From: Planctomycetota bacterium
GTDB taxonomy: Bacteria > Planctomycetota > JAJSAM01 > JAJVHW01
NCBI GenBank assembly: GCA_021776825.1
Contig: JAJFFG010000051.1
Span: 17,283 to 81,282, forward strand
Length of the DNA: 64,000 bases
Direction of reading: 5' to 3'
Shown here: one piece after another, positions 9,012-40,500 of the stretch
Layout: each line of letters begins with the position of its first letter
Position numbering within the stretch: position 1 is the first letter of the stretch
Notes under the pieces: model-generated
The model's database searches: none
Seen by the model: only the letters and a program-made list of their open reading frames with translations
Told to the model about the DNA's origin: nothing
Program-made: the position numbers and the translations under genes

Positions 9012-9262
9012 CGAGCCTCGCGACCTCCTGGACATGTGACCCTGCGCGCACGGGCATTCGAACGTCTAACGCCGCCCCGTCCAAGGCCTGCAGTCAGGCG
9101 GCTTCCTCAACGCCGCACGAGCCTCCAAACACATTGACACGCAATCGCGACGCTCCCTACCCTCCGTCCGCGCCTGACCTTGCGTGCGTCGCAGTGACGC
9201 ACCGCCGCCGCGAAGACCGCTTCGGCCACCGTCGCAACGGGCGCACAGCGAGAGACCGCCCG

Positions 9263-24626: not shown

Positions 24627-24950
24627 TCAGGAGAGCGCCGTGGGAGGTCGCGGGCTCGGACTGGGGTCGTCGGTGACCCGCTTCTTCATGAGGCGGCCAA
24701 CCTTGAACTTCACGACGCGCTTGGCCGGGACATCGACTTTCTCGAGCGTGCGGGGGTTCTGGGCGCGCCGTGCAGGGCGTCCCTTGATCTCGAACACCCC
24801 GAACTCGCGGAACTCGAGACGGTTGCCCTTGGCCAGCTCGTTGATGATCTCGTCGAGGAAGCGCTGCAGGATGTCCTTCGTGACGACCTTCGTCTCTCCG
24901 GTCTGCGATGCGATTCGTGCGACGAGTTCCTTCTTGGTGATCGTGGCCAT
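24627..24950 (-). CDS. HU/IHF-family nucleoid-associated DNA-binding protein with Pro/Ser-rich C-terminal tail
   Basis: MATITKKELVARIASQTGETKVVTKDILQRFLDEIINELAKGNRLEFREFGVFEIKGRPARRAQNPRTLEKVDVPAKRVVKFKVG is the canonical HU/IHF fold sequence. The upstream part of ORF 24627..25061 is rejected. Confidence 0.85.
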   Translation of the reverse strand: MATITKKELVARIASQTGETKVVTKDILQRFLDEIINELAKGNRLEFREFGVFEIKGRPARRAQNPRTLEKVDVPAKRVVKFKVGRLMKKRVTDDPSPSPRPPTALS

Positions 24951-25061
24951 GCTCAACTCCGCGGTGTCCGGCGGCTCGGCCGGGCGCCTTGGCGGCCCCC
25001 TCACGTTTCGACTTATCTCCGCTCTCCAACGAGAGTTAGAAGAACGTAGCCAAGTGGCCAC

Positions 25062-25958
25062 ATGGGAATCAAGCGCGAATCCGAGGTGGACGTGACGGAG
25101 CCCCGCCCTGAGCCATCACCCGCACGGGCCGGCGACACCGTCCGGACCCAGGTCACGTCTCGCTGGGAACGCGTGTTCCCGGACGAGACCACGCGCGACC
25201 GTCTCGCGCGACTGCGAGCATCTTACGAGGCGCTCCCGGTAGAGACCTGGGCGACGAGTCGCACCACGGACACGTCGGTGATCGAGGTCGGCGCACTTGG
25301 GCGCATCGTCCGTAAACGGTGGAGATTTCACGAGTTACGGGATCGTCTCCGCGGCATCGGGCGGACGACGGCGTGGGCCGACTCGCCAGCGGCCCGCGAG
25401 TTCGCCAGCCTCCAGGCTGGGGCGGACGTGCACGAGCAGGACGCCTCCGGGCTTCGGTACCCGCGACCGCTCGCAGTCCTCGAACTGCGTCAGGGGGGGC
25501 TCCTGATGGACTGCCTCCTGCTGCTCGAGGAGGTCGCGGGCGCCCGCGATCTGGCGACATGGCTGCGCGCGACGGATCGGCGGCGCGCGAGACGAGACGT
25601 CCTCGCTCAGCTGGGCCGCAGAGCGGCCGGCATGCACGCCCTCGGCATCGTCGACGGCGACTTTCATCTGCGTAACCTGCTCGTGGACCCCGAGTTGAGG
25701 CTCTGGAAGGTCGATTGTCGGCGTCTCCGGACGCGGGCGCTCTCGCGACGTCGGCGGGTCTACGATCTGGCCAGCGCCGACGTCGGCCTGCGCGTGCTCG
25801 CGTCGCGCACGGAGCGCGCGCGGGCTCTGCGCGCCTACGCTGACGGTCTCACACGGGCCGAGCGACACGCGCTCGCGAGACTCGTCGAGAGACTCCGCGC
25901 TCGGCTGGCTCCCGACGAAGAACGGCGTCTTCCGCCGATCGACGCGTCCGGCGACTGA
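25062..25958 (+). CDS. lipopolysaccharide kinase (Kdo/WaaP) family protein
   Basis: Kinase-like catalytic motif VDGDFHLRNLLV (the family's GDxHxGNxL). Divergent from the HU gene. Start uncertain. Confidence 0.6.
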   Translation: MGIKRESEVDVTEPRPEPSPARAGDTVRTQVTSRWERVFPDETTRDRLARLRASYEALPVETWATSRTTDTSVIEVGALGRIVRKRWRFHELRDRLRGIGRTTAWADSPAAREFASLQAGADVHEQDASGLRYPRPLAVLELRQGGLLMDCLLLLEEVAGARDLATWLRATDRRRARRDVLAQLGRRAAGMHALGIVDGDFHLRNLLVDPELRLWKVDCRRLRTRALSRRRRVYDLASADVGLRVLASRTERARALRAYADGLTRAERHALARLVERLRARLAPDEERRLPPIDASGD

Positions 25959-26099: not shown

Positions 26100-26537
26100 T
26101 CAAAAAGGCGGCGTCAGGAGAGTCCCAAGCGGGGCCCTGGCGCCGTCGATCGTTTGGGGCCGGCCTACCGGGCTCACACGCACGGTCGCGCGCCCGGTAC
26201 GCCGGCCCCTCGACGGAGTGGTACCCGGGACGACACAGTGAGGAACACGGCGCGACGCGCTACGCACGCAGCACGAAGCGGCGAACTGGGCCGGAGTCGT
26301 CGACGTCGAACGCATCGGGGTCGGCGCAGCACGCGCGGAAGTAGGCCAGCGAGGCGGCGGGTCGAGGGTCGTGGTGTCGCTGAACCCGTCGAAGGTGAGG
26401 CCAGTCGCCGTGACGCGGAACGTGTAGCGGAACACGAGGCCGCGCTCCGGCACGAGCGCTCCCGTCCAGACGAGCTCCTTCAGCGCGTGTCCCTCGGGCC
26501 ACGGGTTCCCCGGGAACCAGATGCGGCCGTTCACGAC
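26100..26537 (-). CDS. hypothetical protein (only the N-terminal roughly 70 aa look protein-like)
   Basis: The frame continues downstream of the LAB_N gene: NGRIWFPGNPWPEGHALKELVWTGALVPERGLVFRYTFRVTATGLTFDGFSD, followed by an R/S/P-rich tail that may be spurious. Confidence 0.2.
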   Translation of the reverse strand, partial: VVNGRIWFPGNPWPEGHALKELVWTGALVPERGLVFRYTFRVTATGLTFDGFSDTTTLDPPPRWPTSARAAPTPMRSTSTTPAQFAASCCVRSASRRVPHCVVPGTTPSRGRRTGRATVRVSPVGRPQTIDGARAPLGTLLTPPF

Positions 26538-26836
26538 GGTGGTGCCTCGGCCGCGCGACGCTTGCGGTACACGAGCACGAGGTTCCGCGTGTAGACGACG
26601 AGGCCGAACATCTGGCCGAGCACCGCGGGCGGGGATGCGATCTGGATGAAGTAGACGAGCGAGATCGCGCCGCCGACGAGCGAGCACCACCAGAACCCGA
26701 TCGGGATGACGCTCTCGCCGCGACGCTCCGACACGACCCACTGCAGTGCGAAGCGCGTGAAGAAGATGCCCTGCCCCACGAAGCCGAGGATGTGGATCGG
26801 GTCCTGGAGAGCCCCGAGGAGCTCGCTCCAGTTCAC
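26531..26836 (-). CDS. lipid A biosynthesis N-terminal (LAB_N) domain small membrane protein
   Basis: About 101 aa, three hydrophobic helices (ILGFVGQGIFFTRFALQWVVSE...IGFWWCSLVGGAISLVYFI...). GTG start overlaps the stop of the upstream GT2 gene. This family characteristically partners GtrB/ArnC-type GT2 enzymes. Confidence 0.65.
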   Translation of the reverse strand: MNWSELLGALQDPIHILGFVGQGIFFTRFALQWVVSERRGESVIPIGFWWCSLVGGAISLVYFIQIASPPAVLGQMFGLVVYTRNLVLVYRKRRAAEAPPS

Positions 26837-27576
26837 GACTCCTCCTCGCCAACCGACACGACCCGGTAGCTCAGCCGCCGACGCTGCATCCACCGGATCG
26901 CGCGGAGATCGACCATCCCTCGAAAGACGCGGTTCCACACGCCGTACTTCGAGGTGCCACCGCGTCGTGGACGGTGTCGCACGGGGACCTCGACCACCGA
27001 GAAACCCGCCATCTCGGCGAGCGTCGGGAGGAAGCGGTGCATGCCGTCGAACGGGAGGAAGGCATCCCGCACGTCGCGGCGGAACGCCTTCAGCGGGCAG
27101 GTCACGTCCCGGATCGAGCTGGAGGTCCGGAGGTTTCGGAACGAGTTGGCGACACGCGACGAGGCCCGTTTGACGAACGAGTCGTGGCGCTCGCGTCGCC
27201 AGCCGCACGCCATGTCCGCGTCGCCGCGGCGCACGACGTCCACCAGGCTGGGCAGATCCCGCGGGTCGAGCTGACCGTCGCTGTCCATCATCGCCAGGAT
27301 CTCGCCACGCGCAGCGCGGAAGCCACAGTGCAGGGCGGCCGAGAGCCCGTGGTTGCGATCGAGACGCAGCACTCGCACAGTGGGATGGAGCCGCGCGAGC
27401 TCGTCCAGTTGCGCGGAGCTCCCGTCCTGCGAGCCATCATCGACGAACACGACCTCGTACGCGGGCGCGAGGTCCTCGAGCACCGGCAGGATCTCGTCGA
27501 GCAGCGTGCGCAGCGACTCGCACTCGTCGTAGACCGGCAGCACGAGACTGAGTTCGACGTCGTCGCGACCGCTCAT
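26833..27576 (-). CDS. glycosyltransferase family 2, polyprenyl-phosphate hexose synthase (ArnC/GtrB/DPM1-like)
   Basis: Start MSGRDDVELSLVLPVYDE (ATG rc at 27574-27576). DxD region VVFVDDGSQDGS. The upstream extension of ORF 26833..27885 is rejected. Confidence 0.85.
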   Translation of the reverse strand: MSGRDDVELSLVLPVYDECESLRTLLDEILPVLEDLAPAYEVVFVDDGSQDGSSAQLDELARLHPTVRVLRLDRNHGLSAALHCGFRAARGEILAMMDSDGQLDPRDLPSLVDVVRRGDADMACGWRRERHDSFVKRASSRVANSFRNLRTSSSIRDVTCPLKAFRRDVRDAFLPFDGMHRFLPTLAEMAGFSVVEVPVRHRPRRGGTSKYGVWNRVFRGMVDLRAIRWMQRRRLSYRVVSVGEEES

Positions 27577-27730
27577 CACACTCCATTCTCGTCCGCCGCG
27601 GACCGGCCGCGTCAGTCTACGTCGGCCGCTCCACGGCGAACGTACACTCCCGCGATGCGTCTCAGCGTCCGCGTCGCGATCGGCTCTCCGGGCGGAGTGA
27701 GGAGCCCGGCGTCGTGAGGAAGCCAACGTC

Positions 27731-28957
27731 GTGAGATCCGATCGTCGCTTCATCGCGGGTGTCGTCCTGCTGGCGCTCCTCGTGCGGTCGATCGCGCTCG
27801 GTCGGGACGACCTGTGGGCGGACGAGATCCACACGCTGCAGGCCATCGAGCTCGACTGGCGAGCGATGATCGTCGAGCGGTTCACGCAAGGTCACGTGCC
27901 CGGCTACTTCGCGATCGCGAAGGCGTGGTCCATCGCGGCCGGAACGTCGCAGGCCGCCCTGCGAGGGCCGTCGGTCGCGTTCGGCGCCCTGGCGATTGTG
28001 CCCCTGTTCGCGGTCGCGCGTCGCCTGTCTCCGTCCGCCGGCGCCGCACGGTGGACGGTCGTGCTGCTCGCGGCCCACCCGCTGCTGATCGAGTTGTCCC
28101 GCGAGGCGCGCATGTACCCGCTGCTGCTGCTGGTCGGGGCGGTCTTCGTCGCAGCGACTCTGCGCATCCTCGACGGCGGCGCGGGCTGGGCGTGGCTCTT
28201 CCCAGCAGCGATCGCCGGCCCGCTCATCCACCCCACGTGGGCGTTCATGCTCGTACCGCTCCTTGCCGCCGTGCTCTGGAGTCGCAGCGACGGAGAGCCG
28301 CGCCGCCGCCGTGGCATCGTCCTCGCCTGTCTTCTCAGCGCCGCCGTGACCGTCGCGGTGCTGCTCCCGGTCGACGCCCAGACTGGTCAAGAGCTCCTCC
28401 GGCGCCCGTGGTGGCGAGAGATCGGCGTGTTCGTCGTACGGCTTGTCGCCGGCGCCGGTGTCCGCGAACACTTCCTCCTCTGGTACGCACTGCTCCTGGC
28501 TGCCTCGACCTGGTGCGCGGTGCGCGGGTGGTCGCTGCTCGATGCACGCGCACGCCGTTTCGCCGTCTGCCTCGGACCGGGGGTCGTGGCTGCGGGGGGG
28601 TTCGCGTCCGTGTTCGGGCTGACGCTCGGCCCGATGCGCTACGTGCAGTTCGCGACGATCGGGATGTGCTTGGTCATCGGGGCCGGTGCGTCGACGGGTC
28701 GCGCGCGCTGGCTGCTCGTGCCGGCGCTGGTGCTGGTGCTCGGTCTGCGCTTCGTGCCGGCGCGTACGGCATGGAGCACCGCGCTCGCCGGCGTCGATCC
28801 CGCGCTGCCGCTCGTCTTGGTCGATCCCTCGGCGCGGATGGTGGCCGAGCACTACGCAGGGCGTCCGGTCTCGATCGGAGATCCACCGGCGGGCGCGGCG
28901 GCGTGGATCGAGCTCGCGGCGAACGCGGACGAGGTGCGGGTCATCGAGCGTCCCTGA
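27731..28957 (+). CDS. GT-C fold membrane glycosyltransferase, ArnT/PMT-like (GT39/GT83-type), paralog 1
   Basis: About 11 TM segments. N-terminal periplasmic-loop DE motif LWADEIHT. Divergent from the GT2 gene. Confidence 0.7.
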   Translation: MRSDRRFIAGVVLLALLVRSIALGRDDLWADEIHTLQAIELDWRAMIVERFTQGHVPGYFAIAKAWSIAAGTSQAALRGPSVAFGALAIVPLFAVARRLSPSAGAARWTVVLLAAHPLLIELSREARMYPLLLLVGAVFVAATLRILDGGAGWAWLFPAAIAGPLIHPTWAFMLVPLLAAVLWSRSDGEPRRRRGIVLACLLSAAVTVAVLLPVDAQTGQELLRRPWWREIGVFVVRLVAGAGVREHFLLWYALLLAASTWCAVRGWSLLDARARRFAVCLGPGVVAAGGFASVFGLTLGPMRYVQFATIGMCLVIGAGASTGRARWLLVPALVLVLGLRFVPARTAWSTALAGVDPALPLVLVDPSARMVAEHYAGRPVSIGDPPAGAAAWIELAANADEVRVIERP

Positions 28958-28984
28958 GGAGTTCCGACGCGCGACGCCTCGGCT

Positions 28985-30565
28985 TCAGCGTGGGCCGCGG
29001 CGGAGTTCCCAGATGCGGATCACGTTGCCGCCTTCGCCGTACTCACCAACCCGCGAGACGCGTTGGTTGCCCTCCGCGTGGAGCGCCAAGTAGAGCTGAC
29101 GCTGCAGCGCGAGTTCCTCCGACCTCGGGTGATCCGGTGGGATCGCGGACCGCACGAAGCGGTCCGACCATGCGCTCGCTTCGACGAGGAACACACGCCC
29201 CGTGGCCTCCGCCAGCGCGTCCCAGTCGGGAACCGGTGTACGGACCACGCGCGCTCGGGGCAGCCGCCGCCAGTGATCGTCGAGCACGTCGCGCGCCCGA
29301 GCATCCACGTGCGGTCGCTGCGACCACGGCACGGCGTCAACATCCACGACGACGGGAACGTAGTCGGGGGCCAGCCACACGGTGTCGCCCGGCTGCAGTA
29401 GATCCCGGAGGTACTCGCCTGCGGCGGCGCGTCCGTCCGACGCCTTCGTCGCGAACGCGTCGCGGGCCTGGATTCCCAGAATGGCGAGGAGCGCCATCCA
29501 CGCCACGCCTCGCAACCAAAGCGGTTCGGCCAACGACGTCCCGTCGTCACGCCGCGGCTGTAGCACGCCGTACGCCACGGTCGAGAGCAGCGGCAGCAGG
29601 TAGTGGGCCGACTTCTTCTCGATCCCCCAGAGCAAGACAAGCGCCCCGACAGCCCCCCACACCCACGGCTCCCGCAGCATGCGTCGCTGCCGGACGAGCA
29701 CGGCCACGGCGACCGCCGCGGCGAGGAACACGATCCCGTCGGGCACGAGCCGCTCGATCAGCCAGACGCCGTCGATGCCCCAGTCCACAAGGTGACCGTC
29801 CACGCGGACATGCGCGTTCTCGGCGAGCAACGCCTCGAGATGCGCGCGTCCCGCGACGAGCCACGACGGAGCGCCGACGACGAACCCGATCAGTCCGCCC
29901 ACGGCGAGCCGACCCGCAACGCGAGCCCGCCCGCGGAGATCGTTCGCGAGAAGCAGGGGCGCTGCGATCCACGCGAACCCGACCGTAGCGGCGGTCGCCT
30001 TTGCGGCGAACGCGAGCCCGAACGCGAACCCCGCCCGGCCCGGTCGCTCGGCGTCCCACTGCGCGAGCGCAACGACAGCGAGGAGCGAAACGAGCACGTC
30101 TGGCACCGCGAACGCGCCGTAGCGCAGGAACGGCGGCCACAGGAGGAGCCCGACCACCAGCAGCGCCCCCACGGCGGGCGTCCGACTCCCCGCGGCCCGG
30201 CGCAAGAGCAAGCGAGCCAAGACGACGTACGCGACCAGCGACGGGACGCGCGTCCACCAGACCAGTCGCTCCGGCGTGGCGAACCAGTCCACGAAAGCCT
30301 GGACGACGATCGACTGACCGTCGCTCCACGCCTGCAGCGCGATCCCGAGCGCGGCGAACGGCGCGGCGAGGTACGAGTAGAGGGGGCCGTACGCGAAGTG
30401 GCCCGGAACGAGCGTCCGGCCCTGCGCGAACGTGAACACGTTGCGGCTCGTCGCCAACTCGTCTGAGAAGACTGGTTGGTCCCATGCGCCGAACAGCATC
30501 ACGCCGACGGCGACCAGCAGCACGTCGACCCAGCGGTTCCGCAGTCGCTGCAGCGGCTCGCTCAC
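28985..30565 (-). CDS. GT-C fold membrane glycosyltransferase, ArnT/PMT-like, paralog 2
   Basis: Probable GTG start VSEPLQRLRNRWVDVLLVAVGVMLFGAWDQPVFSDELATS (DE motif). Many TM helices. The 5' extension of ORF 28985..31327 is R-rich and rejected. Confidence 0.6.
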   Translation of the reverse strand: MSEPLQRLRNRWVDVLLVAVGVMLFGAWDQPVFSDELATSRNVFTFAQGRTLVPGHFAYGPLYSYLAAPFAALGIALQAWSDGQSIVVQAFVDWFATPERLVWWTRVPSLVAYVVLARLLLRRAAGSRTPAVGALLVVGLLLWPPFLRYGAFAVPDVLVSLLAVVALAQWDAERPGRAGFAFGLAFAAKATAATVGFAWIAAPLLLANDLRGRARVAGRLAVGGLIGFVVGAPSWLVAGRAHLEALLAENAHVRVDGHLVDWGIDGVWLIERLVPDGIVFLAAAVAVAVLVRQRRMLREPWVWGAVGALVLLWGIEKKSAHYLLPLLSTVAYGVLQPRRDDGTSLAEPLWLRGVAWMALLAILGIQARDAFATKASDGRAAAGEYLRDLLQPGDTVWLAPDYVPVVVDVDAVPWSQRPHVDARARDVLDDHWRRLPRARVVRTPVPDWDALAEATGRVFLVEASAWSDRFVRSAIPPDHPRSEELALQRQLYLALHAEGNQRVSRVGEYGEGGNVIRIWELRRGPR

Positions 30566-30702
30566 TCGGCCCGGTCTCGCGGAACTCTCGTCGCGACGGC
30601 GCGCGCAGGCGACGCGCGCGTTCGCGGGGCGAGCGCGACGACGGCGCAGCGGCAGAGTAGTCTCCGACTCATGAGTTCGGGACGAGCGTAGCGGCAGGCG
30701 GA

Positions 30703-32175
30703 ATGGAGTCGAACAGCGGAACTTCGTCGCAGCCCGACCGCTCCGGGCGGGATCGCCTCGTTCGCGCGAGCTGCAACGTCGGCGTGTTCGGTCTCGCCCT
30801 CGGGATCGCGCTGTATGGGCTCGGTCGAGCGGACCTCTGGCACGACGAGGCCGCGTCGCTTCACTTCGCACGGCTCTCGCTCTCGGAGCTGCCGGGAGAG
30901 CTCGCGCGGCGGGACAACCACGGGCCGACGTACTTCGCGTTCCTGCACGCCTGGGCGTCGGTATTCGGCGAGGGCGCGTTCGCTGCGCGTCTGCCCTCAG
31001 CGCTCGCTGCGGCGCTCGCTTGCGTCGGGACGACGTGGATCGGGCAACGGATCGCCGGGCTTCGCGCCGGAGTCGCCGCTGGGGTCCTCCTCGCCACGAG
31101 CCCGATGCACCTCTGGCACGCGCAAGAGGTGCGCTTCTACGCACCCGCTCTGATGCTCGTGACGGCCCAGGTGGCTGCGGCGATGACGCTCTGTGATCGA
31201 CCGACGCGACGGAGAGCAGCGGTGCTCGGCGCCACCGCCCTACTGGGCTTCTCCACGTTCTACCTGGTCGGGCTGGTGTCGATCGCGATCGCCGCCGGCG
31301 CGTTCCTCGGGCGCGACGACGCCGCACGCGCCAGTCGGCGGCACGTCATCGGCGCGTTCGCGGGCGCGGCGGCGGTCGGCCTGCTCTGGGTGCCGTCGCT
31401 GATCGAGCAGTCGCGTCACGCGCTGCGGTTCCTGTCGTGGATCCCCGATCGACCGATCGGACAGTTCCTCGTGGACGTCGGTCTGGAGGCGGTCGCCGGC
31501 GAGGGTGGCGCAGGCATCCTCCCTTCGATGGCGATCATCGCACTCTGCCTCGCGAGCGCCGTGTTCGTCGCGGCCACGATCCGACGGCGGCGGCCCGACG
31601 ATCTGCTCATCACCTTCTGGCTCGTCCTGCCTCTTGTCGTGGTGCTCGTTCTCTCGCTGCGGCAGTCGTTCCTGTTGGTGCGCTACCTCTACATCGCGCT
31701 GCCGGCGCTGTACGTTGCTGCGGCCGCGGGGATCGCACTCCTGTCGCGTCGACGACCGGGACGTCTCGGCGGATGGGCGCTCGCCGCCGTTGGTGCCGGA
31801 CTCGTGCTCCCTGCGCAGGGTCTGGGTCTGCTCGATCAGCACAGCGCCCCGAAGCGCCCCGAGCGCTGGCGGGAGGCGGTCGCGTGGGTCCGTCCGCAAC
31901 TTCGCGCCGGCGACGTGCTGGCGGTGGCTCCGCACTGGGACCTGTACACGCTGGAACTCCACTTCGACGGCGCCGGGCCATTCGTCGCCCTGCGGGCTGA
32001 CGAGGACTCGCTCTCCTCGCTCGGCAACGATGCGCGTCGTCTGTGGGTGCTGCAGTCGTTCGACGAGGGGGAGCCGACGCGGATCGCCCTGCGCGAGGAC
32101 CTGACCCTCAGCGACGAGCGCACCTTCGGCACGCTTCACGTCGACCGGTTCGAGTTGGCGCGAGACGACCGTTGA
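30703..32175 (+). CDS. GT-C fold membrane glycosyltransferase, ArnT/PMT-like, paralog 3
   Basis: DE motif LWHDEAASLHFA after the first TM. About 12 TM helices. Confidence 0.7.
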   Translation: MESNSGTSSQPDRSGRDRLVRASCNVGVFGLALGIALYGLGRADLWHDEAASLHFARLSLSELPGELARRDNHGPTYFAFLHAWASVFGEGAFAARLPSALAAALACVGTTWIGQRIAGLRAGVAAGVLLATSPMHLWHAQEVRFYAPALMLVTAQVAAAMTLCDRPTRRRAAVLGATALLGFSTFYLVGLVSIAIAAGAFLGRDDAARASRRHVIGAFAGAAAVGLLWVPSLIEQSRHALRFLSWIPDRPIGQFLVDVGLEAVAGEGGAGILPSMAIIALCLASAVFVAATIRRRRPDDLLITFWLVLPLVVVLVLSLRQSFLLVRYLYIALPALYVAAAAGIALLSRRRPGRLGGWALAAVGAGLVLPAQGLGLLDQHSAPKRPERWREAVAWVRPQLRAGDVLAVAPHWDLYTLELHFDGAGPFVALRADEDSLSSLGNDARRLWVLQSFDEGEPTRIALREDLTLSDERTFGTLHVDRFELARDDR

Positions 32176-33695
32176 ACGAGCTGGCTCCGCTGCTTCGCCT
32201 TGGTCCAACGCTCGTCGCCGCGCTCGCGATCTGGGCGCTCACGACGGCGTGGCTCTCGTGGTGTGGGCGCACCGGGCGCGACCGACTCGCGTTCTGGCCG
32301 CTCGCCGCCGTCGCGAGCGGCGCTGCGCTGTTCTGGGCGGCGCAGGTCGGGGTGGACTGGGACGAGTCCGAGCACCTGCACGCCGCGTGGCGCGTCGCGG
32401 TCGGTGAGCGGCCGTTCGTCGACTTCTGGCAGCACCACTCGCCGACACTCTGGTTCGTGACGTCGCCACTCGCCGGAGCGCTCGGCGAGTCGCCGTGGCT
32501 CATTCCGGTCGCAAGGGCGCTGAGCACGATCGCGACCATCATCGCGGCCTGGATCGCATGGCGTCTCGCCCGGCGACTGCATGGCGACGTCGCGTCGCCG
32601 TCACGGTTCGTGTTCCTGTTCGCTGCGGGCGCGATCACGTGGCAGTTCGCCTGGCTGCGGCCGGACGTGCCCGCCCTGCTCTTGCTCCTCGGTGCCGGTC
32701 ACGCGTGCGTCGACGTCGCCGAGGGTCGCCGCCGCGGCGCGCTGCTCGCGGGAGCGATGCTGGCACTCGCGTGGGGCTTCGCGCCGAAGCAGTTGGCCTT
32801 CGCCGTGCTGCCGCTGGGCGCCATCGTCTTGGGCGGGATCGGTCCGGGCAGGCGAGACCGGCTCCCGCATCGGCTCGGAGCCTTCGGGATCGGCCTCGTC
32901 CTCGGCGCCGCGCCCCTCGTCGGCGTGCTCCTGCAACAGGACCTCGCCCACGCGTTCTGGCAGAACGTGGTCCGCTTCAACGCGCAGCACGTCGGACCCG
33001 GGTTCCCGTTCGGACCAGCGTGGCTGGTGCTCGGGACCGCGGCGGCCGTTGCTGCGTGGCGGCGGTCGGATCGCTCAGCTGCGGGCAGCGTACTCGTCGT
33101 TGCACTGGCTCTCGTCACGCTCGGTTCCGTGGTCGCCGTGCAACACACGGCCCGCTACCACCTGGCGCCGTGGATGGTGCTGGTCGCTGTGCTTGCGTGC
33201 GGTGCAGACGTTCCGGCCGGACTGGGCGGACTGGGCGGCCGCGTCCGACCCGCCGTGATCGGCCTCCTCTGCGCACTGCTTCTCGTGCCCGGTCTCCGGC
33301 AGGCCTGGAACGCGCGCGGCGAACTCTCCCAGGACATCGCGCGGCGCACGGAGTTGCTCGCGGTCTCGCGCGGCGAGAGCGTCCTGTGTGTCCATCCCGA
33401 CCATCCGATCGCTCGGCCGGACGCGACGCGCCTGCACTCGACGTGGCAGCTGCGCTTCACGCGGCGCAATCAGCTGACGCCGCTGGAACCCGACACCGGC
33501 GCGGGGTTCCTGGACCGCATGCGCGCGGCCCGCCCTGCTGTCGTCGTCACCGAGATCGATCAGGTGCCGATCGCCGAAGCCCTTGCCGCGCGCGGCGTTC
33601 TCTCCGAGGCTGAGGCGCTGGAGCTGAAGACGCTCCTCAGCAGTGCCTACGCGCTGCGAGTCGTCGCAGGCCGGACGTTCTACGTTGCGGAGTAG
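32172..33695 (+). CDS. GT-C-like polytopic membrane protein, paralog 4
   Basis: TTG start overlapping the upstream stop (TTGA). DWDESEHLHAAW acidic loop motif. Many TM helices. The upstream part of ORF 32043..33695 overlaps paralog 3 and is rejected. Confidence 0.5.
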   Translation: MNELAPLLRLGPTLVAALAIWALTTAWLSWCGRTGRDRLAFWPLAAVASGAALFWAAQVGVDWDESEHLHAAWRVAVGERPFVDFWQHHSPTLWFVTSPLAGALGESPWLIPVARALSTIATIIAAWIAWRLARRLHGDVASPSRFVFLFAAGAITWQFAWLRPDVPALLLLLGAGHACVDVAEGRRRGALLAGAMLALAWGFAPKQLAFAVLPLGAIVLGGIGPGRRDRLPHRLGAFGIGLVLGAAPLVGVLLQQDLAHAFWQNVVRFNAQHVGPGFPFGPAWLVLGTAAAVAAWRRSDRSAAGSVLVVALALVTLGSVVAVQHTARYHLAPWMVLVAVLACGADVPAGLGGLGGRVRPAVIGLLCALLLVPGLRQAWNARGELSQDIARRTELLAVSRGESVLCVHPDHPIARPDATRLHSTWQLRFTRRNQLTPLEPDTGAGFLDRMRAARPAVVVTEIDQVPIAEALAARGVLSEAEALELKTLLSSAYALRVVAGRTFYVAE

Positions 33696-33782
33696 CCGGG
33701 CTCGGTCACGGCGCGCGCGAAGGATCTCGGCGCTCCGATGACAGAATCCACCGCACTGGCACGGCCGCCACCCGTTGGTGAG

Positions 33783-35996
33783 ATGGAGACCCCCATGCGC
33801 CCCTCGACCGCCTCGATCGCCGCCGCTCTCCTCCTTGCCGTCGCCGCCTGCGGGACGCCACGCGCCGAGGAGGCGCCGAGCGCGACGAACCCGGACGCCC
33901 CCGTGACGGTCGCGGAGCCGGTCGCCGAACCGATCAAGATCGTGTTCGAGCCTCCGTTCACCGGGCCGTACGTCGACATCGACACGCCGGTCGTCACCAC
34001 GGCGCCGCAGCCGCATCCCGTGCGGCGATTGACGACCTCCGACCGTGTTCTCGTGACCGCGACCGATTGGGGCTTGCACGACGATCGCGAGACCGAGGGC
34101 ACACGTCCGTTCCGCCTGCTGGTGGTCGATGCCGTGACCGAGGCGGTGGTACCGGACGCCGAGATCCGCTTCTTCCGGGTCTCCGACCGCGGTCCGGACT
34201 GGCGCCAGCAGCTCCCCGCGCGGCTGTACGCGGACGAGACCGGCACGGTGAACGTCGACGTCGCGCTCGATGCGCGTGTCGCCATGGTCGCCCGCGCTCC
34301 GGAGTGCCTGCCGGTGACGGCGATCCTCGATCCACTGGCCGGCGTGCGCACGCGAGAGGGTCTGCTCGGTCGCGGCCTGGTCGTCGGGCCGTCGGGTGAG
34401 TCGGCGACGCTCTTCGTCGGCGGCGGCGGGCGCCTCCACGGAGTGGTCACGGACGAGGACGGCCTGCCGCTCGCCGACGCCGTGGTGAGGATCTCGCCGC
34501 CGGACGAGACGCAGCGACAGCCCTGGCGACACGGCTACCTCGTCGACGCCGATGCGAAGCGCTTCCTGTCCCCCATGTGCACAACGGACGCGGAGGGCGC
34601 GTACGACCTCCGCGGGGTCGCGGTCCCGGGCCGCTACGTCGTCCTCGCCGGGCGGGCCCACGATGCGACGGGGCGCTCCGCTGAGACGCTCTTCCTTCCG
34701 GAAACCGACGAGGCCTGCGCGGACGTCCGACTCGAGCCGAGGTCCATGCTGATCGTGCGCGTCATGGACGCCGACGAGACACCGCAGCCGGAGGCGTGGA
34801 TCGAGCTGCAGGCCACGTGGGGCCCGAAGACTCCGGACGTCAGCGACGGTGCCGCTACCGGAGAGTGGCGCTACGGACCGCTGCTCGCAGGCGAGTACCG
34901 CATGTCGGTCAACGCGCCGGACCTGGTCGGAGAACGCCGTGTCGTCACCGTCGACGGGCTCCGAGAGAGCACGCAGACATTCCTGCTGAACCGCGGCGGC
35001 GCGCTGACTGGTCGCCTCACGAACCCCTCCGGCACGCCGATCTCGGGCGTCGAGGTCCGCTTCACGAACCGCAGCTCGCGGCACTCCGCCAAGTCCGACG
35101 ACGACGGCCGCTTCTCGATCCCGGGCGTCTCCGCGGACCCCGGCACCGTGCAGATCTTCACCCCGCCGGGACATCGATCGTACCTCCGACGCAAGGTCGT
35201 CCCCACCGGCGACCCGCTCGAGATCACGTTGGAGCCGCTCTCGTCGATCCGCGGACGCGTGCTCCCCGTGCCGGCCTGCGGCACGGTCACGTACTCCGGT
35301 CCGGGCGGCTCCCGCACGGGCTGGAAGACGCGCGAGATCGCGGTCGACGACGACGGCACGTTCCTTATCGATGGCATCGACGGGGTGCGCGCGTTCGACA
35401 TGCTGCTCTGGCCCGGCGGCGGCGCGTGTCACATCCTGCGTGGCACGAAGCTTACCTCCGGCAAGACACTCGACATCGGCACGATCGACGGCTCCCCCGA
35501 GGCGCGCCTCACGGGTCACGTTGTCGACGAGAACGGAGAGCCGCTCCCCGGCGCGACGGTGTTCCTCGAGCAGTTCCCGGTGGCGCAGCGCGTCCGCACG
35601 CGGACCGACGCGGACGGCTCGTTCACGCTGCCGCTGAACGCGCGAGGCGACGGGCTGCTCGTCGTCAAGGCCGACGGCCTGCCCACGACCCACGTGCCCC
35701 TCGCCGTCGATCCCGATCGTCGACGTGTGTCGCTGCAGGTCCTTCCGGGCGGCACCGTCGCCGGCACGCTCCCCACGACGGGCAGCGGGCGGCAGTCCTC
35801 GTACATCGAGTTCCGGCGCAAGGCGGGCCCCGGGCGCTGGGTCGCGAACGCGACCGCCGGGCTGGGTCTCTACGAGGTCCGGCTCCCCGCGGGCACGTAC
35901 ACCACGCGTGGACGCATCAACGGCAAGTGGGTCGCCGGCGACGAGGTCGAGGTCCGGAGCGGCGGAAAGCACGTCGTCTCGATTAAGGCGCGCTGA
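33783..35996 (+). CDS. lipoprotein with repeated carboxypeptidase-regulatory-like (CarbopepD_reg/Big-like) beta-sandwich domains
   Basis: Start METPMRPSTASIAAALLLAVAACG (lipobox). Repeated G(R/V)V-x-DE-x-G-x-P-L-x-GA-x-V motifs (GVVTDEDGLPLADAVV, GRLTNPSGTPISGVEV, GHVVDENGEPLPGATV). Confidence 0.65.
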   Translation: METPMRPSTASIAAALLLAVAACGTPRAEEAPSATNPDAPVTVAEPVAEPIKIVFEPPFTGPYVDIDTPVVTTAPQPHPVRRLTTSDRVLVTATDWGLHDDRETEGTRPFRLLVVDAVTEAVVPDAEIRFFRVSDRGPDWRQQLPARLYADETGTVNVDVALDARVAMVARAPECLPVTAILDPLAGVRTREGLLGRGLVVGPSGESATLFVGGGGRLHGVVTDEDGLPLADAVVRISPPDETQRQPWRHGYLVDADAKRFLSPMCTTDAEGAYDLRGVAVPGRYVVLAGRAHDATGRSAETLFLPETDEACADVRLEPRSMLIVRVMDADETPQPEAWIELQATWGPKTPDVSDGAATGEWRYGPLLAGEYRMSVNAPDLVGERRVVTVDGLRESTQTFLLNRGGALTGRLTNPSGTPISGVEVRFTNRSSRHSAKSDDDGRFSIPGVSADPGTVQIFTPPGHRSYLRRKVVPTGDPLEITLEPLSSIRGRVLPVPACGTVTYSGPGGSRTGWKTREIAVDDDGTFLIDGIDGVRAFDMLLWPGGGACHILRGTKLTSGKTLDIGTIDGSPEARLTGHVVDENGEPLPGATVFLEQFPVAQRVRTRTDADGSFTLPLNARGDGLLVVKADGLPTTHVPLAVDPDRRRVSLQVLPGGTVAGTLPTTGSGRQSSYIEFRRKAGPGRWVANATAGLGLYEVRLPAGTYTTRGRINGKWVAGDEVEVRSGGKHVVSIKAR

Positions 35997-37531: not shown

Positions 37532-40500
37532 CTACCGGTCGAAGAGGCCGTGCTTCTCCATCTTCTTCCGCAGCCACACGCGGGAGATGCCGAGGTCCTT
37601 CGCAGCGCGGGTCTGGTTCCCGCCGGTGTGATCGAGGGCCTTCTCGATCAGCGCGCGCTCCATCTTCTCGAGGTTCTCCTTGAGCGTGCGGCCGGCCTCG
37701 GGGCGCACGAGTTCGGGCTCGGGGCCAGCACGCTCGCCCTGGATGGCGAACGAGAGGTCCTCGAGCGTGACGCGGTCGTCGGAGAGCGTCAGCGCCTTCT
37801 TCACCTCGTTGTCGAGCTCGCGGACGTTCCCGGGCCAGGCGTAGCCGGCCATGGCGTCGAGGGCGTCCGCGTCGAACGCCTTGCGCGTCAGGCCGAGCTC
37901 GATCGCGGCGCGATCGGCCATGTGCTCGATCAGCAGCCGGATGTCGCCGTCGCGGTCGCGAAGCGGCGGCATCGCGATGCTGATGACGGCGATGCGGTAG
38001 TACAGGTCCTCGCGGAACGTGCTCTCGCCCATCATCTTGCGCAGGTCGCGATTGGTGGCCGAGATGACGCGTACATCGACCTTCTTCACGTCCTTGCCAC
38101 CGACGGCGCGCACCTCGCGCTCCTGGAGCACGCGCAGGAGCTTCTTCTGCATGTCGAAGCTCATCTCCCCGATCTCATCGAGGAAGATGGTGCCGCCGTC
38201 GGCCGCACTGAAGAGACCCTGCTTGTCCTCGTGCGCGCCGGTGAACGAGCCGCGCACGTGGCCGAAGAGTTCGCTCTCCATCAGCGACTCGGTGATCGCG
38301 CCGCAGTTGACGGTCACGAACGGTCCCGCCTTGCGGCGCCCGTACTGGTGCAGCGCGCGCGCGATCAGCTCCTTGCCCGTGCCCGACTCGCCGTGCACGA
38401 GCACCGGGACCTCGGTGTCGACGACCTTGTCGACGAGTAGGAGCACGCGGTGCATCTGCGGGGACTCGCCGATGAGCTCCGTATACGGGTACTTCGTGGC
38501 GCGCTCCGCGAGGGCCCGCGACGCCTGCTCGAGCTCCGCACTCTTCTGCTCGAGGTTGTGCTCGAGCTGACGGTTGAGCTGCTGCATGCTCTCGGCCTGC
38601 CGCAGGTTGCGGATGGCGAGCGCGGCCTGGTCACCGAGCGCCGTCAGGAACTGCAGGTCGCCGGTCCCGAACTGACCGTTGCGGGCCGGGTTGTCGAGGT
38701 AGAGAGCGCCGATCGTCTCCTCGCCCAGACGGAACGGCACCGAGATGATCGACTTCAGTTCGAGGCGCTCGACGCTCTCGAACTCGCTGAAGCGCTGATC
38801 TTCGGTCGCGTTGTCGGTGAGGATCGGCTGGCCGCTCTTCATCACGCGCGTAACGAGCGTGCGGCTGACCTTCAGCTCCGGCTTCGGGACCTCCTCGCGG
38901 CGGAAGTTGCGCGCCGTCTGGAAGGAGATCTTCTTCGCGTCGTCGACCAGGATCAGGAATCCGCGCTCCGCGCCCGTCGCCTCGGTGGCGACGTCCATGA
39001 TGGTGTCGAGCAAGCCGCGCACGTCGGTGGCCAACGCGAGCTTCTTGTTGATCTCGAGCAGTTTGAACAGGCGTTCCTGGTCCATTTCGTCCTCTCGAGC
39101 GGCCTCCGGCGTCGCGTCCGACCCTGAACCAACAAGCAGCGCCATCTCATCCGCGAGCCGGTCCAAGCGCTCCTTCTTCGCCCCCGCGGCACGCGTCCCT
39201 CGTAGCGCCGGCGGCAGCGAGGCCTGGAGGTCGTCTTCACACTGGATCGCCTCCGCCAGCGCGGTGCTCGCGCCGTCGCGATCACCGGCGGAGAAGCGAC
39301 CCCGCGCCAGAGCGTACGCGGCGGTGGCGCGGTAGTCACGACGCCCTGCCGCGTGGACGTATCGATGGAAGCGTTGGAGGGCTGCGAGAGCCTCGTCCGA
39401 GGCCTCGCGATCGGCATCCAGACGCCCCCGGACGAGGTCCACCCGAGCGCGCAGATCGGCCGGCCCGTGTTCCGCGGCGATGTCCTTGGCAGCCCGCCAC
39501 GACTTGATCGCCGTGCCGCGGCGATTGCGGGCGTGATCCGCCAGCGCCGTCTCGAGCATCACTTCGGCGAGGCCCGCCCGATCGCCGGCCTCTTCGTGCA
39601 ATCGAGCCGCGGCCTGGAGATGTGCCTGCGCTGCGTCGCTGTGAGGATCCAGGCGGCTCTCGAGACGACCGAGCAGCATCTCCGCTACCGCCTGGTGGCT
39701 GCGCAGTGAGGCCGAGGCGGCCCGCGACAGCGCCCGTATCAGAAGCGGCCGAACGCCCACGAGGTCGTCGGCAAGCAGGTGGATGTCGGCCATCTGGATC
39801 AGGAACTGCACCTCTCCGCGGGCGTCGCCGAGCGCGCGCAGGCGGCGCGTCGCGGTGTGGAGCAGTGTCAGGGCGGTCCCAAGGCGGCCACGAGCGCGAT
39901 ACAGTCCGGCGAGGTTGCCCGTCGTCACGGCGATCCCGGCCAGGTCACCGATACGACGGCGCAGAGCGAGACTCCGTCGCTGCAGTTGCTCGGCTTCCGT
40001 GAAGTCGCCGTGCTCGGCGCGCAGGTTCGCCAGATTGCCGAGCGTCTGGGCGACGCCCTGCAGGTCCTTGGCGCGGCGTGCCAGTCGCAGCGACTGGCGA
40101 TAGCTCGCAGCAGCGTCAGCCGCGCGCCCCTGCTGGGCGGAGACCACACCCAGATTGTGCAGCGCGGTCGCCATGCCACGCCGCCGCCCGAGCGCACGAC
40201 ACGCGGCCAGACAGCTCTCGTGGAACTGCCGCGCGCGTCCGAGTTCGCCGAGCTGGAGGTACACGTTGCCGAGCAGGGTCAGGAGCGTCGCGCGCTCGGC
40301 GCCACGCCCCTCTCCCGCCAGCGGCAGTGCTCCACGGACCGTCTCGATCGCGCCGCGCAGATCGCCCAGGCCGCGCTGGGCGCTCGCCATTCGCGCGAGC
40401 AGTTGGAGGCGTAGGTCGCCCCTCTCGGCCGGATCGAGCGAGGTCCCCGGCTCTTCGATCAGGTCGAGTGCGCCGCGGCAAGCCGGCTCGACATCGGTCG

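What the first reader, a model, noticed from the sequence alone, without database searches (positions are those of the whole stretch)
26531..33695. Polyprenyl-phosphate glycosylation module with four tandem, alternately oriented GT-C (ArnT/PMT-like) paralogs next to a GT2/LAB_N pair
A GtrB/ArnC-like GT2 (26833-27576) is translationally coupled to a LAB_N-domain mini membrane protein (26531-26836). These are the classic partners that make and handle undecaprenyl-phosphate hexose. They are followed by four large polytopic GT-C-type proteins (27731-28957 +, 28985-30565 -, 30703-32175 +, 32172-33695 +). Each has an acidic DE/DD loop motif after TM1 (LWADEIHT, FSDELATS, LWHDEAASL, DWDESEH). A fifth TMTC-like GT-C with TPR lies at 46221-47861. 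A Kdo-kinase-family gene and an HU gene sit immediately upstream. A single lipid-linked sugar donor system serving four or five different GT-C transferases suggests modification of several distinct acceptors. Candidates are lipid A or core, S-layer or other proteins (O-mannosylation-like), or exopolysaccharide. That would be an unusually elaborate periplasmic glycosylation system.
Basis: partly seen in the sequence, partly recalled or inferred. Interest (0 to 1): 0.65.

Follow-up and report, generated by a model that had tools for sequence, protein, structure and literature searches.

The report
Lipid-linked sugar locus with four transferases
This 7-kb stretch encodes an enzyme that loads a sugar onto a membrane lipid carrier, a tiny sugar-transporter-like membrane partner, and four very different membrane enzymes that probably use such lipid-linked sugars outside the cytoplasm: a real, gene-dense example of a known kind of system, not a new one.

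Summary

- **Donor pair.** The GT2 is a 247-aa ArnC/GtrB/DPMS-type polyprenyl-phosphate sugar synthase with no transmembrane hairpin. Its stop overlaps (GTGA) the start of a 101-aa LAB_N protein.
- **Four GT-C genes.** A, B, C and D are all PMT_2-type GT-C glycosyltransferases. Each has a conserved Asp-Glu pair just after the first inward-to-outward helix. B misses the Pfam threshold, but a family profile and a pLDDT 93 model matching ArnT and ALG12 confirm it.
- **Not recent duplicates.** Only A and C are BLAST-detectable relatives.
- **Fifth GT-C.** The "TMTC-like" gene at 46221-47861 is not confirmed.

Related contigs show separately inherited modules. One is short GT2 + LAB_N (± one GT-C), which recurs across phyla. 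The other is the trio B | C-D, kept in two relatives without GT2/LAB_N nearby. The single full-length A relative found also lacks a GT2 beside it. One donor feeding all four transferases is therefore plausible but not shown.

Comparable systems are known: RgtE/RgtA-D, Ppm1/Ppm2, PpgS/Rv3632/Rv3779, ArnC/ArnT. The least understood part is LAB_N, a SemiSWEET-clan protein that may anchor the synthase or flip its product. I found no experimental paper on it.

The parts
26833..27576 (-). GT2: polyprenyl-phosphate sugar synthase catalytic domain (ArnC/GtrB/DPMS type), 247 aa, no transmembrane segment
   Evidence: PF00535 117 bits. Best PDB relatives are ArnC (E 1.6e-32, residues 8-225 against 9-225 of 322), GtrB (3.5e-20) and P. 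furiosus DPMS (1.5e-17). No hydrophobic segment found. DSD at residue 98 and VDDGS at 45.
26531..26836 (-). LAB_N small membrane protein, 101 aa, three helices, SemiSWEET clan; start overlaps the GT2 stop (GTGA)
   Evidence: PF07578 93 bits. GTGA overlap. AlphaFold pLDDT 84, three long helices. The top four PDB hits of the family profile are SemiSWEETs, best E 0.034. 29 of 44 homologs give sub-threshold MtN3_slv hits. Pfam MtN3-like clan membership per PMC4499210.
27731..28957 (+). GT-C A, 408 aa, PMT_2 type, short C-terminal tail; transcribed divergently from GT2 across a 154-nt spacer
   Evidence: PMT_2 30.5 bits. hhalign against the B-family profile 94.3%. 31% identical to C over 250 aa. 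D31-E32 at 27821-27826.
28985..30565 (-). GT-C B, 526 aa, member of a rare PMT_2-like subfamily with a C-terminal alpha/beta domain; convergent with A, divergent from C
   Evidence: Exhaustive profile search: 226 representatives at E<1e-3, only 3 below 1e-30. Invariant D35 E36 Y65 R106 G183 K189. 58 of 61 members hit PMT_2. Pmt1 E 2.7e-9. AlphaFold pLDDT 93.3; Foldseek ALG12 2.4e-7 and ArnT 1.3e-5. DE at 30458-30463.
30703..32175 (+). GT-C C, 490 aa, PMT_2 type
   Evidence: PMT_2 37 bits. NF052499 mannosyltransferase 74 bits, far below its 900 cut-off. hhalign 98.6%. Orthologs in L082 (43%) and L083 (52-55%) keep DIWHDEAAS. DE at 30844-30849.
32172..33695 (+). GT-C D, 507 aa, PMT_2 type, with one extra N-terminal helix before the motif helix; start overlaps the C stop (TTGA)
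   Evidence: PMT_2 27.4 bits. hhalign 97.1%. Orthologs in L082 (39%) and L083 (46%) keep VDWDExEHLHAAW. DE at 32361-32366.
33738..35996 (+). Putative lipoprotein with CarboxypepD_reg (Ig-like) repeats, same strand directly after D; a possible acceptor or unrelated neighbour. Association not established.
   Evidence: CarboxypepD_reg 127 bits, 3 stretches. LAVAAC lipobox followed by a Pro/Thr/Ala/Val-rich linker. No homolog beside the cluster in L082.

Best explanation
The locus is a composite of modules for glycosylation from polyprenyl-phosphate-linked monosaccharides.

Step 1 (family shown, chemistry inferred). At the cytoplasmic face, the 247-aa GT2 transfers one sugar from a nucleotide sugar to undecaprenyl or another polyprenyl phosphate. 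It has the catalytic domain of ArnC/GtrB/DPMS but lacks their C-terminal membrane hairpin.

Step 2 (inferred). The translationally coupled LAB_N protein is a three-helix SemiSWEET-clan protein that probably dimerises. It supplies the missing membrane part. At minimum it docks or stabilises the synthase, as Ppm2 does for Ppm1 and as proposed for Rv3632 with PpgS. It may also move the lipid-linked sugar to the periplasmic leaflet.

Step 3 (fold and motif shown, substrates inferred). Four GT-C enzymes each carry an Asp-Glu pair at the start of the first periplasmic loop. They transfer the sugar from the lipid carrier to periplasmic acceptors.

B, C and D form a trio inherited together in relatives, so they most likely act on one product, either in successive steps or at different positions of a cell-envelope glycan. 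SGNH/AlgX-like genes inserted in the trio in relatives point weakly to a polysaccharide. A is the GT-C physically paired with GT2-LAB_N here. Whether GT2-LAB_N also makes the donor for B, C and D is unknown. The sugar and the acceptors are also unknown.
For: - GT2 family and lack of TM segments.
- Translational coupling.
- LAB_N family and SemiSWEET relation.
- LAB_N context is always a short GT2 and/or a GT-C: L085, L086/L087 and L088-L091, plus 9 of 80 GT2-centred loci, 8 of them with a TM-less GT2.
- Short GT2s without LAB_N mostly lie next to a 540-610 aa polytopic protein; the three tested on L004 are PMT/PMT_2 and the one on L002 is GT87.
- GT-C identity of A-D.
- Motif position and conservation.
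- Conserved B|C-D trio with SGNH genes in relatives.
- Precedent for a TM-less synthase with a separate membrane partner and GT-C users: PMC3485146.
Against: - No biochemical data exist for any of these proteins.
- The two modules are not linked in relatives. The single A relative (L092) has no GT2 beside it. Shared donor use is therefore an assumption.
- Many TM-less GT2 relatives have no LAB_N within 10 kb, so LAB_N is not obligatory for this GT2 clade.
- Topology is inferred from hydropathy and charge, not measured.
- No sugar-nucleotide modifying genes lie nearby to indicate the sugar.
Confidence: 0.6

Rival explanations
1. Adjacency without shared chemistry. GT2-LAB_N (perhaps with A) is one system. 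B|C-D is an independent system that takes its lipid-linked donor from a synthase encoded elsewhere. The two merely lie side by side in this genome.
For: The B|C-D trio is conserved in L082 and L083 with no GT2, LAB_N or A within the 6.7-21.5 kb of sequence fetched. GT2-LAB_N in L085, from the same assembly as L083, is followed by a GT87 gene and has none of A-D nearby. The closest GT2 relative, L002 (65%), has GT87 downstream and none of A-D.
Against: GT-C enzymes need some polyprenyl-phosphate sugar. The only candidate synthase found among the roughly 34 of about 46 window genes I screened is this GT2, though the genome outside the window is unseen. Tight packing with 27-154 nt spacers suggests co-selection.
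Confidence: 0.4
2. Lipid A or LPS-core decoration, in the manner of ArnT or Rgt enzymes. The GT-Cs would add sugars to lipid A phosphates or core Kdo, linked to the neighbouring Kdo/WaaP-family kinase.
For: GT2 is closest to ArnC. B's model matches ArnT. A Kdo/WaaP-family kinase lies upstream at 25062-25958, and an MsbA-like ABC exporter at 19494-21311 is 5 kb from the kinase gene.
Against: No ArnA, ArnB, ArnD or ArnE/F homologs in the neighbourhood. The kinase scores 38 bits against the Kdo-kinase equivalog cut-off of 142. It is absent next to GT2-LAB_N or B|C-D in relatives. All hits to ArnC and ArnT are far below equivalog level.
Confidence: 0.2
3. Protein O-glycosylation, in the manner of bacterial Pmt or Pgf systems. 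One or more GT-Cs would mannosylate or glycosylate Ser/Thr in secreted proteins or lipoproteins such as the downstream lipoprotein E.
For: The B-family profile's best solved relatives by sequence are protein O-mannosyltransferases Pmt1 and Pmt4. E follows D on the same strand and has a lipobox plus a Pro/Thr/Ala-rich linker. GT2 has a partial match to S. mutans PgfS at 83 bits.
Against: None of A-D hits PF02366 (PMT) at E<=0.01. E is not conserved beside the trio in L082. SGNH/AlgX-like neighbours in relatives point rather to a polysaccharide.
Confidence: 0.2
4. LAB_N is only a passive membrane anchor, with no transport role.
For: The domain is named after its fusion to the N-terminus of some LpxB enzymes. 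The window protein aligns to positions 141-222 of the 610-position PRK01021 LpxB model. LpxB is a peripheral lipid-directed transferase that acts on the cytoplasmic face (my knowledge), which points to a docking role. Ppm2 stabilises Ppm1 without being essential (PMC3485146).
Against: LAB_N has 16 invariant residues across 44 sequences, many of them polar or aromatic in membrane helices (R28 Q32 W33 S36 E37 S42 S52 Y62 Y82 R84 N85). That is more than a plain anchor needs. Clan relatives are transporters, and CLPTM1L is a glycolipid scramblase (PMC9169118).
Confidence: 0.4

Closest known systems
ArnC / ArnT (with ArnE/F) lipid A aminoarabinose pathway of Enterobacteria
   Same: A GT2 loads a sugar onto undecaprenyl phosphate and a GT-C transfers it in the periplasm. 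ArnC is the closest solved relative of the window GT2. ArnT is among the best structural matches of B. From memory, E. coli ArnT has an LWxPDE-type motif after its first helix, as A and C do here.
   Different: ArnC has a C-terminal membrane hairpin and the window GT2 has none. There are no ArnA/B/D sugar-modifying genes and no ArnE/F. A LAB_N protein is present instead. There are four GT-Cs rather than one. Scores are far below the equivalog cut-off (127 vs 529 bits).
Mycobacterial Ppm1/Ppm2 and PpgS/Rv3632/Rv3779 systems
   Same: A TM-less GT2 polyprenyl-phosphate sugar synthase is encoded next to a separate integral membrane partner. The product is used by GT-C enzymes, many of them in the case of PPM (PMC3485146). 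This is the best functional analogy for the split GT2 + LAB_N arrangement.
   Different: The partners belong to other families. Ppm2 has six TM segments. Rv3632 is a small integral membrane protein that I recall as GtrA-like. Neither is a LAB_N or SemiSWEET-clan protein. The PpgS NCBIfam match of the window GT2 is only 39 bits against a 370 cut-off.
Rhizobium RgtE + RgtA/B/C/D galacturonosylation of LPS (Brown et al. 2012, cited in PMC9393093; details from memory)
   Same: One GT2-made lipid-linked sugar donor serves four different PMT_2-type GT-C transferases that decorate distinct positions of one envelope molecule.
   Different: Homology to Rgt proteins was not tested because no sequences were available. 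No LAB_N is known to me in that system. The acceptor there is LPS; here it is unknown.
Eukaryotic DPM synthase / MPDU1 / lumenal GT-C enzymes (ALG3, 9, 12, PMTs, PIG-M)
   Same: Human DPM1 also lacks a membrane anchor and relies on small membrane subunits (my knowledge). MPDU1 belongs to the PQ-loop family, which Pfam places in the same MtN3-like clan as LAB_N, and is needed for all Dol-P-monosaccharide-dependent GT-C reactions (PMC3281891; PMC9169118; PMC4499210). ALG12 and ALG9 are top structural matches of B.
   Different: LAB_N is a half-size three-helix unit and is closer to SWEET than to PQ-loop models. The relation to MPDU1 is at clan level only. MPDU1's own mechanism is unknown.
GtrA/GtrB/GtrX O-antigen glucosylation modules of Shigella and Salmonella phages (my knowledge; GtrB structure)
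   Same: Three-part logic: a GT2 synthase, a small membrane protein thought to flip the product, and a polytopic periplasmic transferase.
   Different: GtrB has TM helices and GtrA is a four-helix protein of another family. In my recollection the Gtr transferases form a separate, serotype-specific group; I did not test whether they relate to PMT_2.

Membership tests
GT-C glycosyltransferases, Pfam PMT_2 (PF13231) group | Significant match to the PMT_2 model at or above the gathering score (26.1 bits) | tested here: met
   A 30.5, C 37.0, D 27.4 bits. B alone scores 21.3 (below), but 58 of 61 of its family members pass E<=0.01 and its profile hits Pmt1 at E 2.7e-9.
GT-C glycosyltransferases, Pfam PMT_2 (PF13231) group | GT-C fold: polytopic membrane domain resembling ArnT/PMT/ALG enzymes | tested here: met
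   B only: AlphaFold pLDDT 93.3, pTM 0.93. Foldseek probability 1.00 to ALG12, ArnT, ALG9, AftA/B and PglB, with TM-score about 0.5. A, C and D are linked by profile comparison only.
GT-C glycosyltransferases, Pfam PMT_2 (PF13231) group | Conserved acidic motif in the first extracytoplasmic loop | tested here: met
   DE follows the first inward-to-outward helix in all four. It is invariant in 61 B-family sequences and kept in C and D orthologs. The side of the membrane is inferred from the positive-inside rule, not measured.
GT-C glycosyltransferases, Pfam PMT_2 (PF13231) group | Uses a polyprenyl-phosphate-linked sugar as donor | not testable with these tools
   Requires enzymology.
ArnC/GtrB/DPMS-type polyprenyl-phosphate glycosyltransferase (GT2) | GT-A catalytic domain most similar to known polyprenyl-phosphate GT2 enzymes | tested here: met
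   PF00535 117 bits. All seven best PDB sequences are ArnC, GtrB or DPMS entries.
ArnC/GtrB/DPMS-type polyprenyl-phosphate glycosyltransferase (GT2) | C-terminal transmembrane hairpin or domain in the same polypeptide | tested here: not met
   No hydrophobic segment. The alignment to ArnC ends at 225 of 322 and the protein ends 22 residues later. The ~35 relatives with the highest scores to this GT2 are nearly all TM-less as well; lower-scoring ones mostly carry 2-4 C-terminal TM segments.
ArnC ortholog (NF007986 equivalog) | Score at or above 529 bits | tested here: not met
   127 bits.
LAB_N (PF07578) | Full-length match above the gathering score | tested here: met
   93.1 bits against 26.7, model positions 1-71 of 71.
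SemiSWEET / MtN3_slv sugar transporters | Significant sequence or structure match to SemiSWEET | tested here: inconclusive
arn (pmr) lipid A aminoarabinose operon | Presence of ArnA/ArnB/ArnD sugar-modifying enzymes and ArnE/F | tested here: not met
   None among the called genes I screened between 13.7 and 55 kb.
Eukaryote-type protein O-mannosyltransferase (PF02366 PMT, GT39) | Match to the PMT model; MIR-domain lumenal loop | tested here: not met
   No PF02366 or MIR hit for A-D at E<=0.01. 40 of 61 B-family members do hit PF02366 weakly.
TMTC / DUF1736-type GT-C with TPR (claimed for 46221-47861) | Match to a GT-C membrane-domain model plus TPR repeats | tested here: not met
   Only TPR_12 at 20.5 bits, below its 30.1 cut-off. 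No GT-C model hit at E<=1. hhalign against the GT-C profile gives 3.8%.

The most novel reading that the evidence does not exclude
LAB_N is a bacterial, half-size member of the SWEET/PQ-loop superfamily that acts on polyprenyl-phosphate monosaccharides. Coupled to a synthase that has lost its own membrane domain, it would hand over or flip the lipid-linked sugar to the periplasmic leaflet for GT-C enzymes. It would then be the prokaryotic counterpart of eukaryotic MPDU1, whose role in Dol-P-Man and Dol-P-Glc utilisation is still unexplained. It would also be a second glycolipid-translocating member of this superfamily after CLPTM1L.
Probability: 0.3. Interest if true: 0.7.

Novelty: new variant of a known kind. 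Interest (0 to 1): 0.4.

Why it matters
The overall scheme is textbook: a lipid-linked monosaccharide donor plus GT-C transferases. The locus mainly adds a dense, well-delimited example from a poorly sampled high-GC lineage. It includes a rare GT-C subfamily (B) and a conserved three-enzyme unit (B|C-D) whose product is unknown.

The part that could matter more widely is the short GT2 + LAB_N pairing. It recurs across phyla, always with GT-C genes or a short GT2. It puts a SemiSWEET-clan protein exactly where a flippase or utilisation factor for polyprenyl-phosphate sugars is expected.

How these lipids cross the membrane, and what MPDU1 does in eukaryotes, are open questions. A two-gene bacterial module would be an easy system in which to test them.

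Tried and rejected
- Single-sequence searches of A-D against PDB sequences found nothing meaningful. Only the B-family profile worked.
- Word-indexed homolog searches gave 2 hits for B and 3 distant hits for D. The exhaustive profile search was needed.
- The AlphaFold-database fold library was unavailable.
- Literature searches for LAB_N / PF07578 found only clan listings and no functional study.
- I suspected that Bordetella LgmD might be a LAB_N protein. I could only learn that lgmD is dispensable for lipid A glucosamine modification (PMC4993483). Its family was not checked.
- Brown et al. 2012 on the rgt genes is not held in the library.
- A 144-aa ORF called after LAB_N (26100-26534, -) has no family hit. 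Its second half looks like non-coding high-GC translation and it is not conserved. I did not count it as part of the system.
- The HU + GT-C synteny seen in 32 of the 70 metagenome loci comes from one closely related soil lineage, with HU 91% identical among them. I rejected it as evidence that the window's HU gene belongs to the system.
- The promoter/terminator scan and Rfam gave nothing useful.
- My count of GT-C genes per locus has limited sensitivity; it missed the GT87 gene of L002. It is used only qualitatively.
- The organism could not be identified. The closest species-level genome, with GT2 at 65%, is an unclassified MAG.

Full report
**1. What is in the sequence**

The window is about 70% G+C, so raw ORF lists are crowded. 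Third-codon-position GC and a simple GC3-based gene caller pick out one frame per stretch.

| Gene | Coordinates | Strand | Length |
|---|---|---|---|
| LAB_N | 26531-26836 | - | 101 aa |
| GT2 | 26833-27576 | - | 247 aa |
| A | 27731-28957 | + | 408 aa |
| B | 28985-30565 | - | 526 aa |
| C | 30703-32175 | + | 490 aa |
| D | 32172-33695 | + | 507 aa |

The same calls were made independently on a Logan assembly that carries the identical sequence (L001). The GT2 stop overlaps the LAB_N start as GTGA, preceded by GAGGAGGAG. The C stop overlaps the D start as TTGA. A and GT2 are divergent across 154 nt. A and B are convergent with 27 nt between their stops. B and C are divergent across 137 nt.

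**2. Family assignments**

Pfam and NCBIfam give the following.
- LAB_N: PF07578, 93 bits.
- GT2: PF00535, 117 bits. The best NCBIfam match is ArnC at 127 bits, far below its 529-bit equivalog cut-off.
- PMT_2 scores against a cut-off of 26.1: A 30.5, C 37.0, D 27.4, B 21.3.

B needed more work because it falls below the threshold.
- An exhaustive profile search of 1.84 billion representative proteins found 226 relatives at E<1e-3 and only three below 1e-30. B therefore belongs to a rare full-length family.
- In an alignment of 61 members, D35, E36, Y65, R106, G183 and K189 are invariant.
- 58 of the 61 hit PMT_2 and 40 hit PMT.
- The family profile hits yeast Pmt1 (E 2.7e-9), Pmt4, PIG-M and ArnT among solved structures.
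- An AlphaFold model of B is confident (pLDDT 93.3, pTM 0.93). Foldseek places it with ALG12, ArnT, ALG9, AftA/B and PglB.

Profile comparison against the B family gives 98.6% probability for C, 97.1% for D and 94.3% for A. All four are therefore GT-C enzymes of the PMT_2 group.

They are not recent duplicates. By BLASTP only A and C are detectably similar, at 31% over 250 residues with E 5e-5.

**3. The acidic motifs**

In A, B and C the DE pair follows the first hydrophobic helix, whose N-terminal flank carries several arginines. In D an extra helix and an Arg-rich loop (GRTGRDR) come first, so the DE pair again lies after an inward-to-outward helix. The pair is invariant in the B family and conserved in C and D orthologs. 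The periplasmic location is inferred from the positive-inside rule and from the known GT-C architecture. It was not measured.

**4. The donor module**

The solved proteins closest to the GT2 are ArnC, Synechocystis GtrB and Pyrococcus DPMS. All are polyprenyl-phosphate glycosyltransferases. The alignment to ArnC stops at residue 225 of 322. The window protein ends 22 residues after that and has no hydrophobic segment. It is thus a catalytic domain without the membrane hairpin.

I examined 80 related loci from species-representative genomes.
- The ~35 with the highest scores to this GT2 are nearly all TM-less. Most lower-scoring ones carry two to four C-terminal helices.
- LAB_N lies next to the GT2 in nine of the 80 loci. 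Eight of those nine have a TM-less GT2.
- TM-less GT2s without LAB_N mostly lie next to a 540-610 aa polytopic protein. Three on L004 were checked and are PMT/PMT_2; the one on L002 is GT87.

I then started from LAB_N itself. Every contig examined carries a short GT2 and/or a GT-C beside it:
- L085: GT2-LAB_N-GT87
- L086 and L087: GT2-LAB_N
- L088: GT2-LAB_N-PMT
- L089: GT2-LAB_N-PMT_2-PMT_2
- L090: LAB_N-PMT_2-GT2
- L091: PMT_2-LAB_N

**5. What LAB_N is**

- Pfam places it in the MtN3-like clan with SWEET, PQ-loop, MPC and the KDEL receptor (PMC4499210).
- The model has three long helices (pLDDT 84).
- The top four PDB hits of the family profile are SemiSWEETs over their full length, though the best E is only 0.034.
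- Foldseek ranks SemiSWEET and SWEET structures first, at a non-significant E.
- 29 of 44 homologs give sub-threshold SWEET-model hits.
- Sixteen residues are invariant across 44 sequences, many of them polar or aromatic.
- I found no functional study of the family.

Two roles fit the evidence.

The first is a membrane dock for the TM-less synthase. Ppm2 plays that role for Ppm1, and Rv3632 has been suggested to play it for PpgS (PMC3485146). The domain's fusion to some LpxB enzymes points the same way.

The second is a translocator of the lipid-linked sugar. Several facts make this worth testing. CLPTM1L, a PQ-loop family protein, is a glycolipid scramblase. MPDU1, another PQ-loop family protein, is required for all Dol-P-monosaccharide-dependent reactions by an unknown mechanism (PMC9169118; PMC3281891). 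The membrane domain of Pyrococcus DPMS has been proposed to flip its own product (PMC12992685).

**6. Synteny**

B has two close relatives, P0001 (51% identity) and P0002 (45%). Their contigs, L083 and L082, keep B divergent from overlapping C and D orthologs. An SGNH/GDSL gene is inserted between B and C. L082 also has a fourth, different GT-C and an AlgX-like SGNH gene. Neither contig has GT2, LAB_N or A in reach.

L085 comes from the same assembly as L083. It has GT2 (55%) - LAB_N (72%) - GT87 and none of A-D. The closest GT2 in a species-representative genome is L002 at 65%. It is followed by GT87 and has no LAB_N.

A has a single full-length relative in the metagenome collection (L092, 43%), with no GT2 beside it.

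The window therefore joins separately inherited units: GT2-LAB_N, A, and the trio B|C-D. Four GT-C genes within 7 kb is at the top of what I saw. Clusters of three around a short GT2 do occur in unrelated phyla (L003 with LAB_N, and L004).

**7. Surroundings**

- HU (24627-25004, -) and a Kdo/WaaP-family kinase (25062-25958, +) are present. The kinase scores 52 bits on Pfam, but only 38 bits against a 142-bit cut-off on the Kdo-kinase equivalog. Neither gene accompanies the modules in relatives.
- Downstream of D, on the same strand, lie a putative lipoprotein with CarboxypepD_reg repeats and a HEAT+VWA protein.
- No sugar-nucleotide modifying genes are nearby.
- The proposed fifth GT-C (46221-47861) is polytopic with a weak TPR tail, but no GT-C model or profile supports it.

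**8. Verdict**

The four GT-Cs are not paralogous copies of one enzyme. Nothing shows that they share the adjacent donor system.

The locus is a variant of a well-known scheme seen in ArnC/ArnT, Gtr, Ppm1/Ppm2 with the PPM-dependent GT-Cs, PpgS/Rv3632/Rv3779 and RgtE/RgtA-D. Its distinguishing points are the split synthase with a SemiSWEET-clan partner, a rare GT-C subfamily, and a conserved three-enzyme unit of unknown product.

Noticed in passing
L097-L156 (metagenome loci); compare window 24627-25004: In 32 of 70 metagenome loci found with GT-C A, an HU-like gene lies 57-135 nt upstream of the distant A-like GT-C, on the same strand. All have GC 0.62-0.66, and the HU fragments are a median 91% identical to each other, so this is probably one soil lineage. 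In the window, HU is 2.7 kb from A and on the other strand.
   Followed up: partly
window 26100-26534 (-): A 144-aa ORF overlapping the LAB_N stop is called as a gene on the Logan contig. It has no family hit, its second half is Arg/Pro/Ser/Thr-rich, and it is not conserved in L085, where a GT87 gene takes that position. It may be a decayed gene or not a gene at all.
   Followed up: partly
window 37532-42832 (-): A 1766-aa fusion protein: Ser/Thr protein kinase, AAA_16 ATPase, TPR, GAF, sigma-54 activator and a Fis-type HTH domain.
   Followed up: no
window 9262-10452 (+): A serine palmitoyltransferase-like enzyme (NF047600, 545 bits against a 640 cut-off). It hints at sphingolipid synthesis in this organism. 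A PAP2_3 phosphatase lies at 13714-14484.
   Followed up: no
window 19494-21311 (+): An MsbA-like ABC exporter (TIGR02203, 421 bits against a 602 cut-off), about 5 kb upstream of the Kdo/WaaP-family kinase gene.
   Followed up: no
window 33738-35996 (+): A lipoprotein-like protein with an LAVAAC lipobox, then a Pro/Thr/Ala/Val-rich linker, then three CarboxypepD_reg repeats, directly after GT-C D on the same strand. It is a conceivable O-glycosylation target but is not conserved beside the trio in L082.
   Followed up: partly
L082 3358-4497 and 9015-10004; L083 2751-3803: SGNH/GDSL (one also AlgX-like) genes are interleaved with the B|C-D trio in relatives but absent from the window, which has only a 137-nt spacer between B and C.
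   Followed up: partly
window 46221-47861 (-) and 47948-50569 (-): A polytopic protein with a weak TPR tail and no recognisable membrane-domain family, followed by an 873-aa protein with no family hit apart from marginal zinc-ribbon and metalloprotease-like matches.
   Followed up: partly
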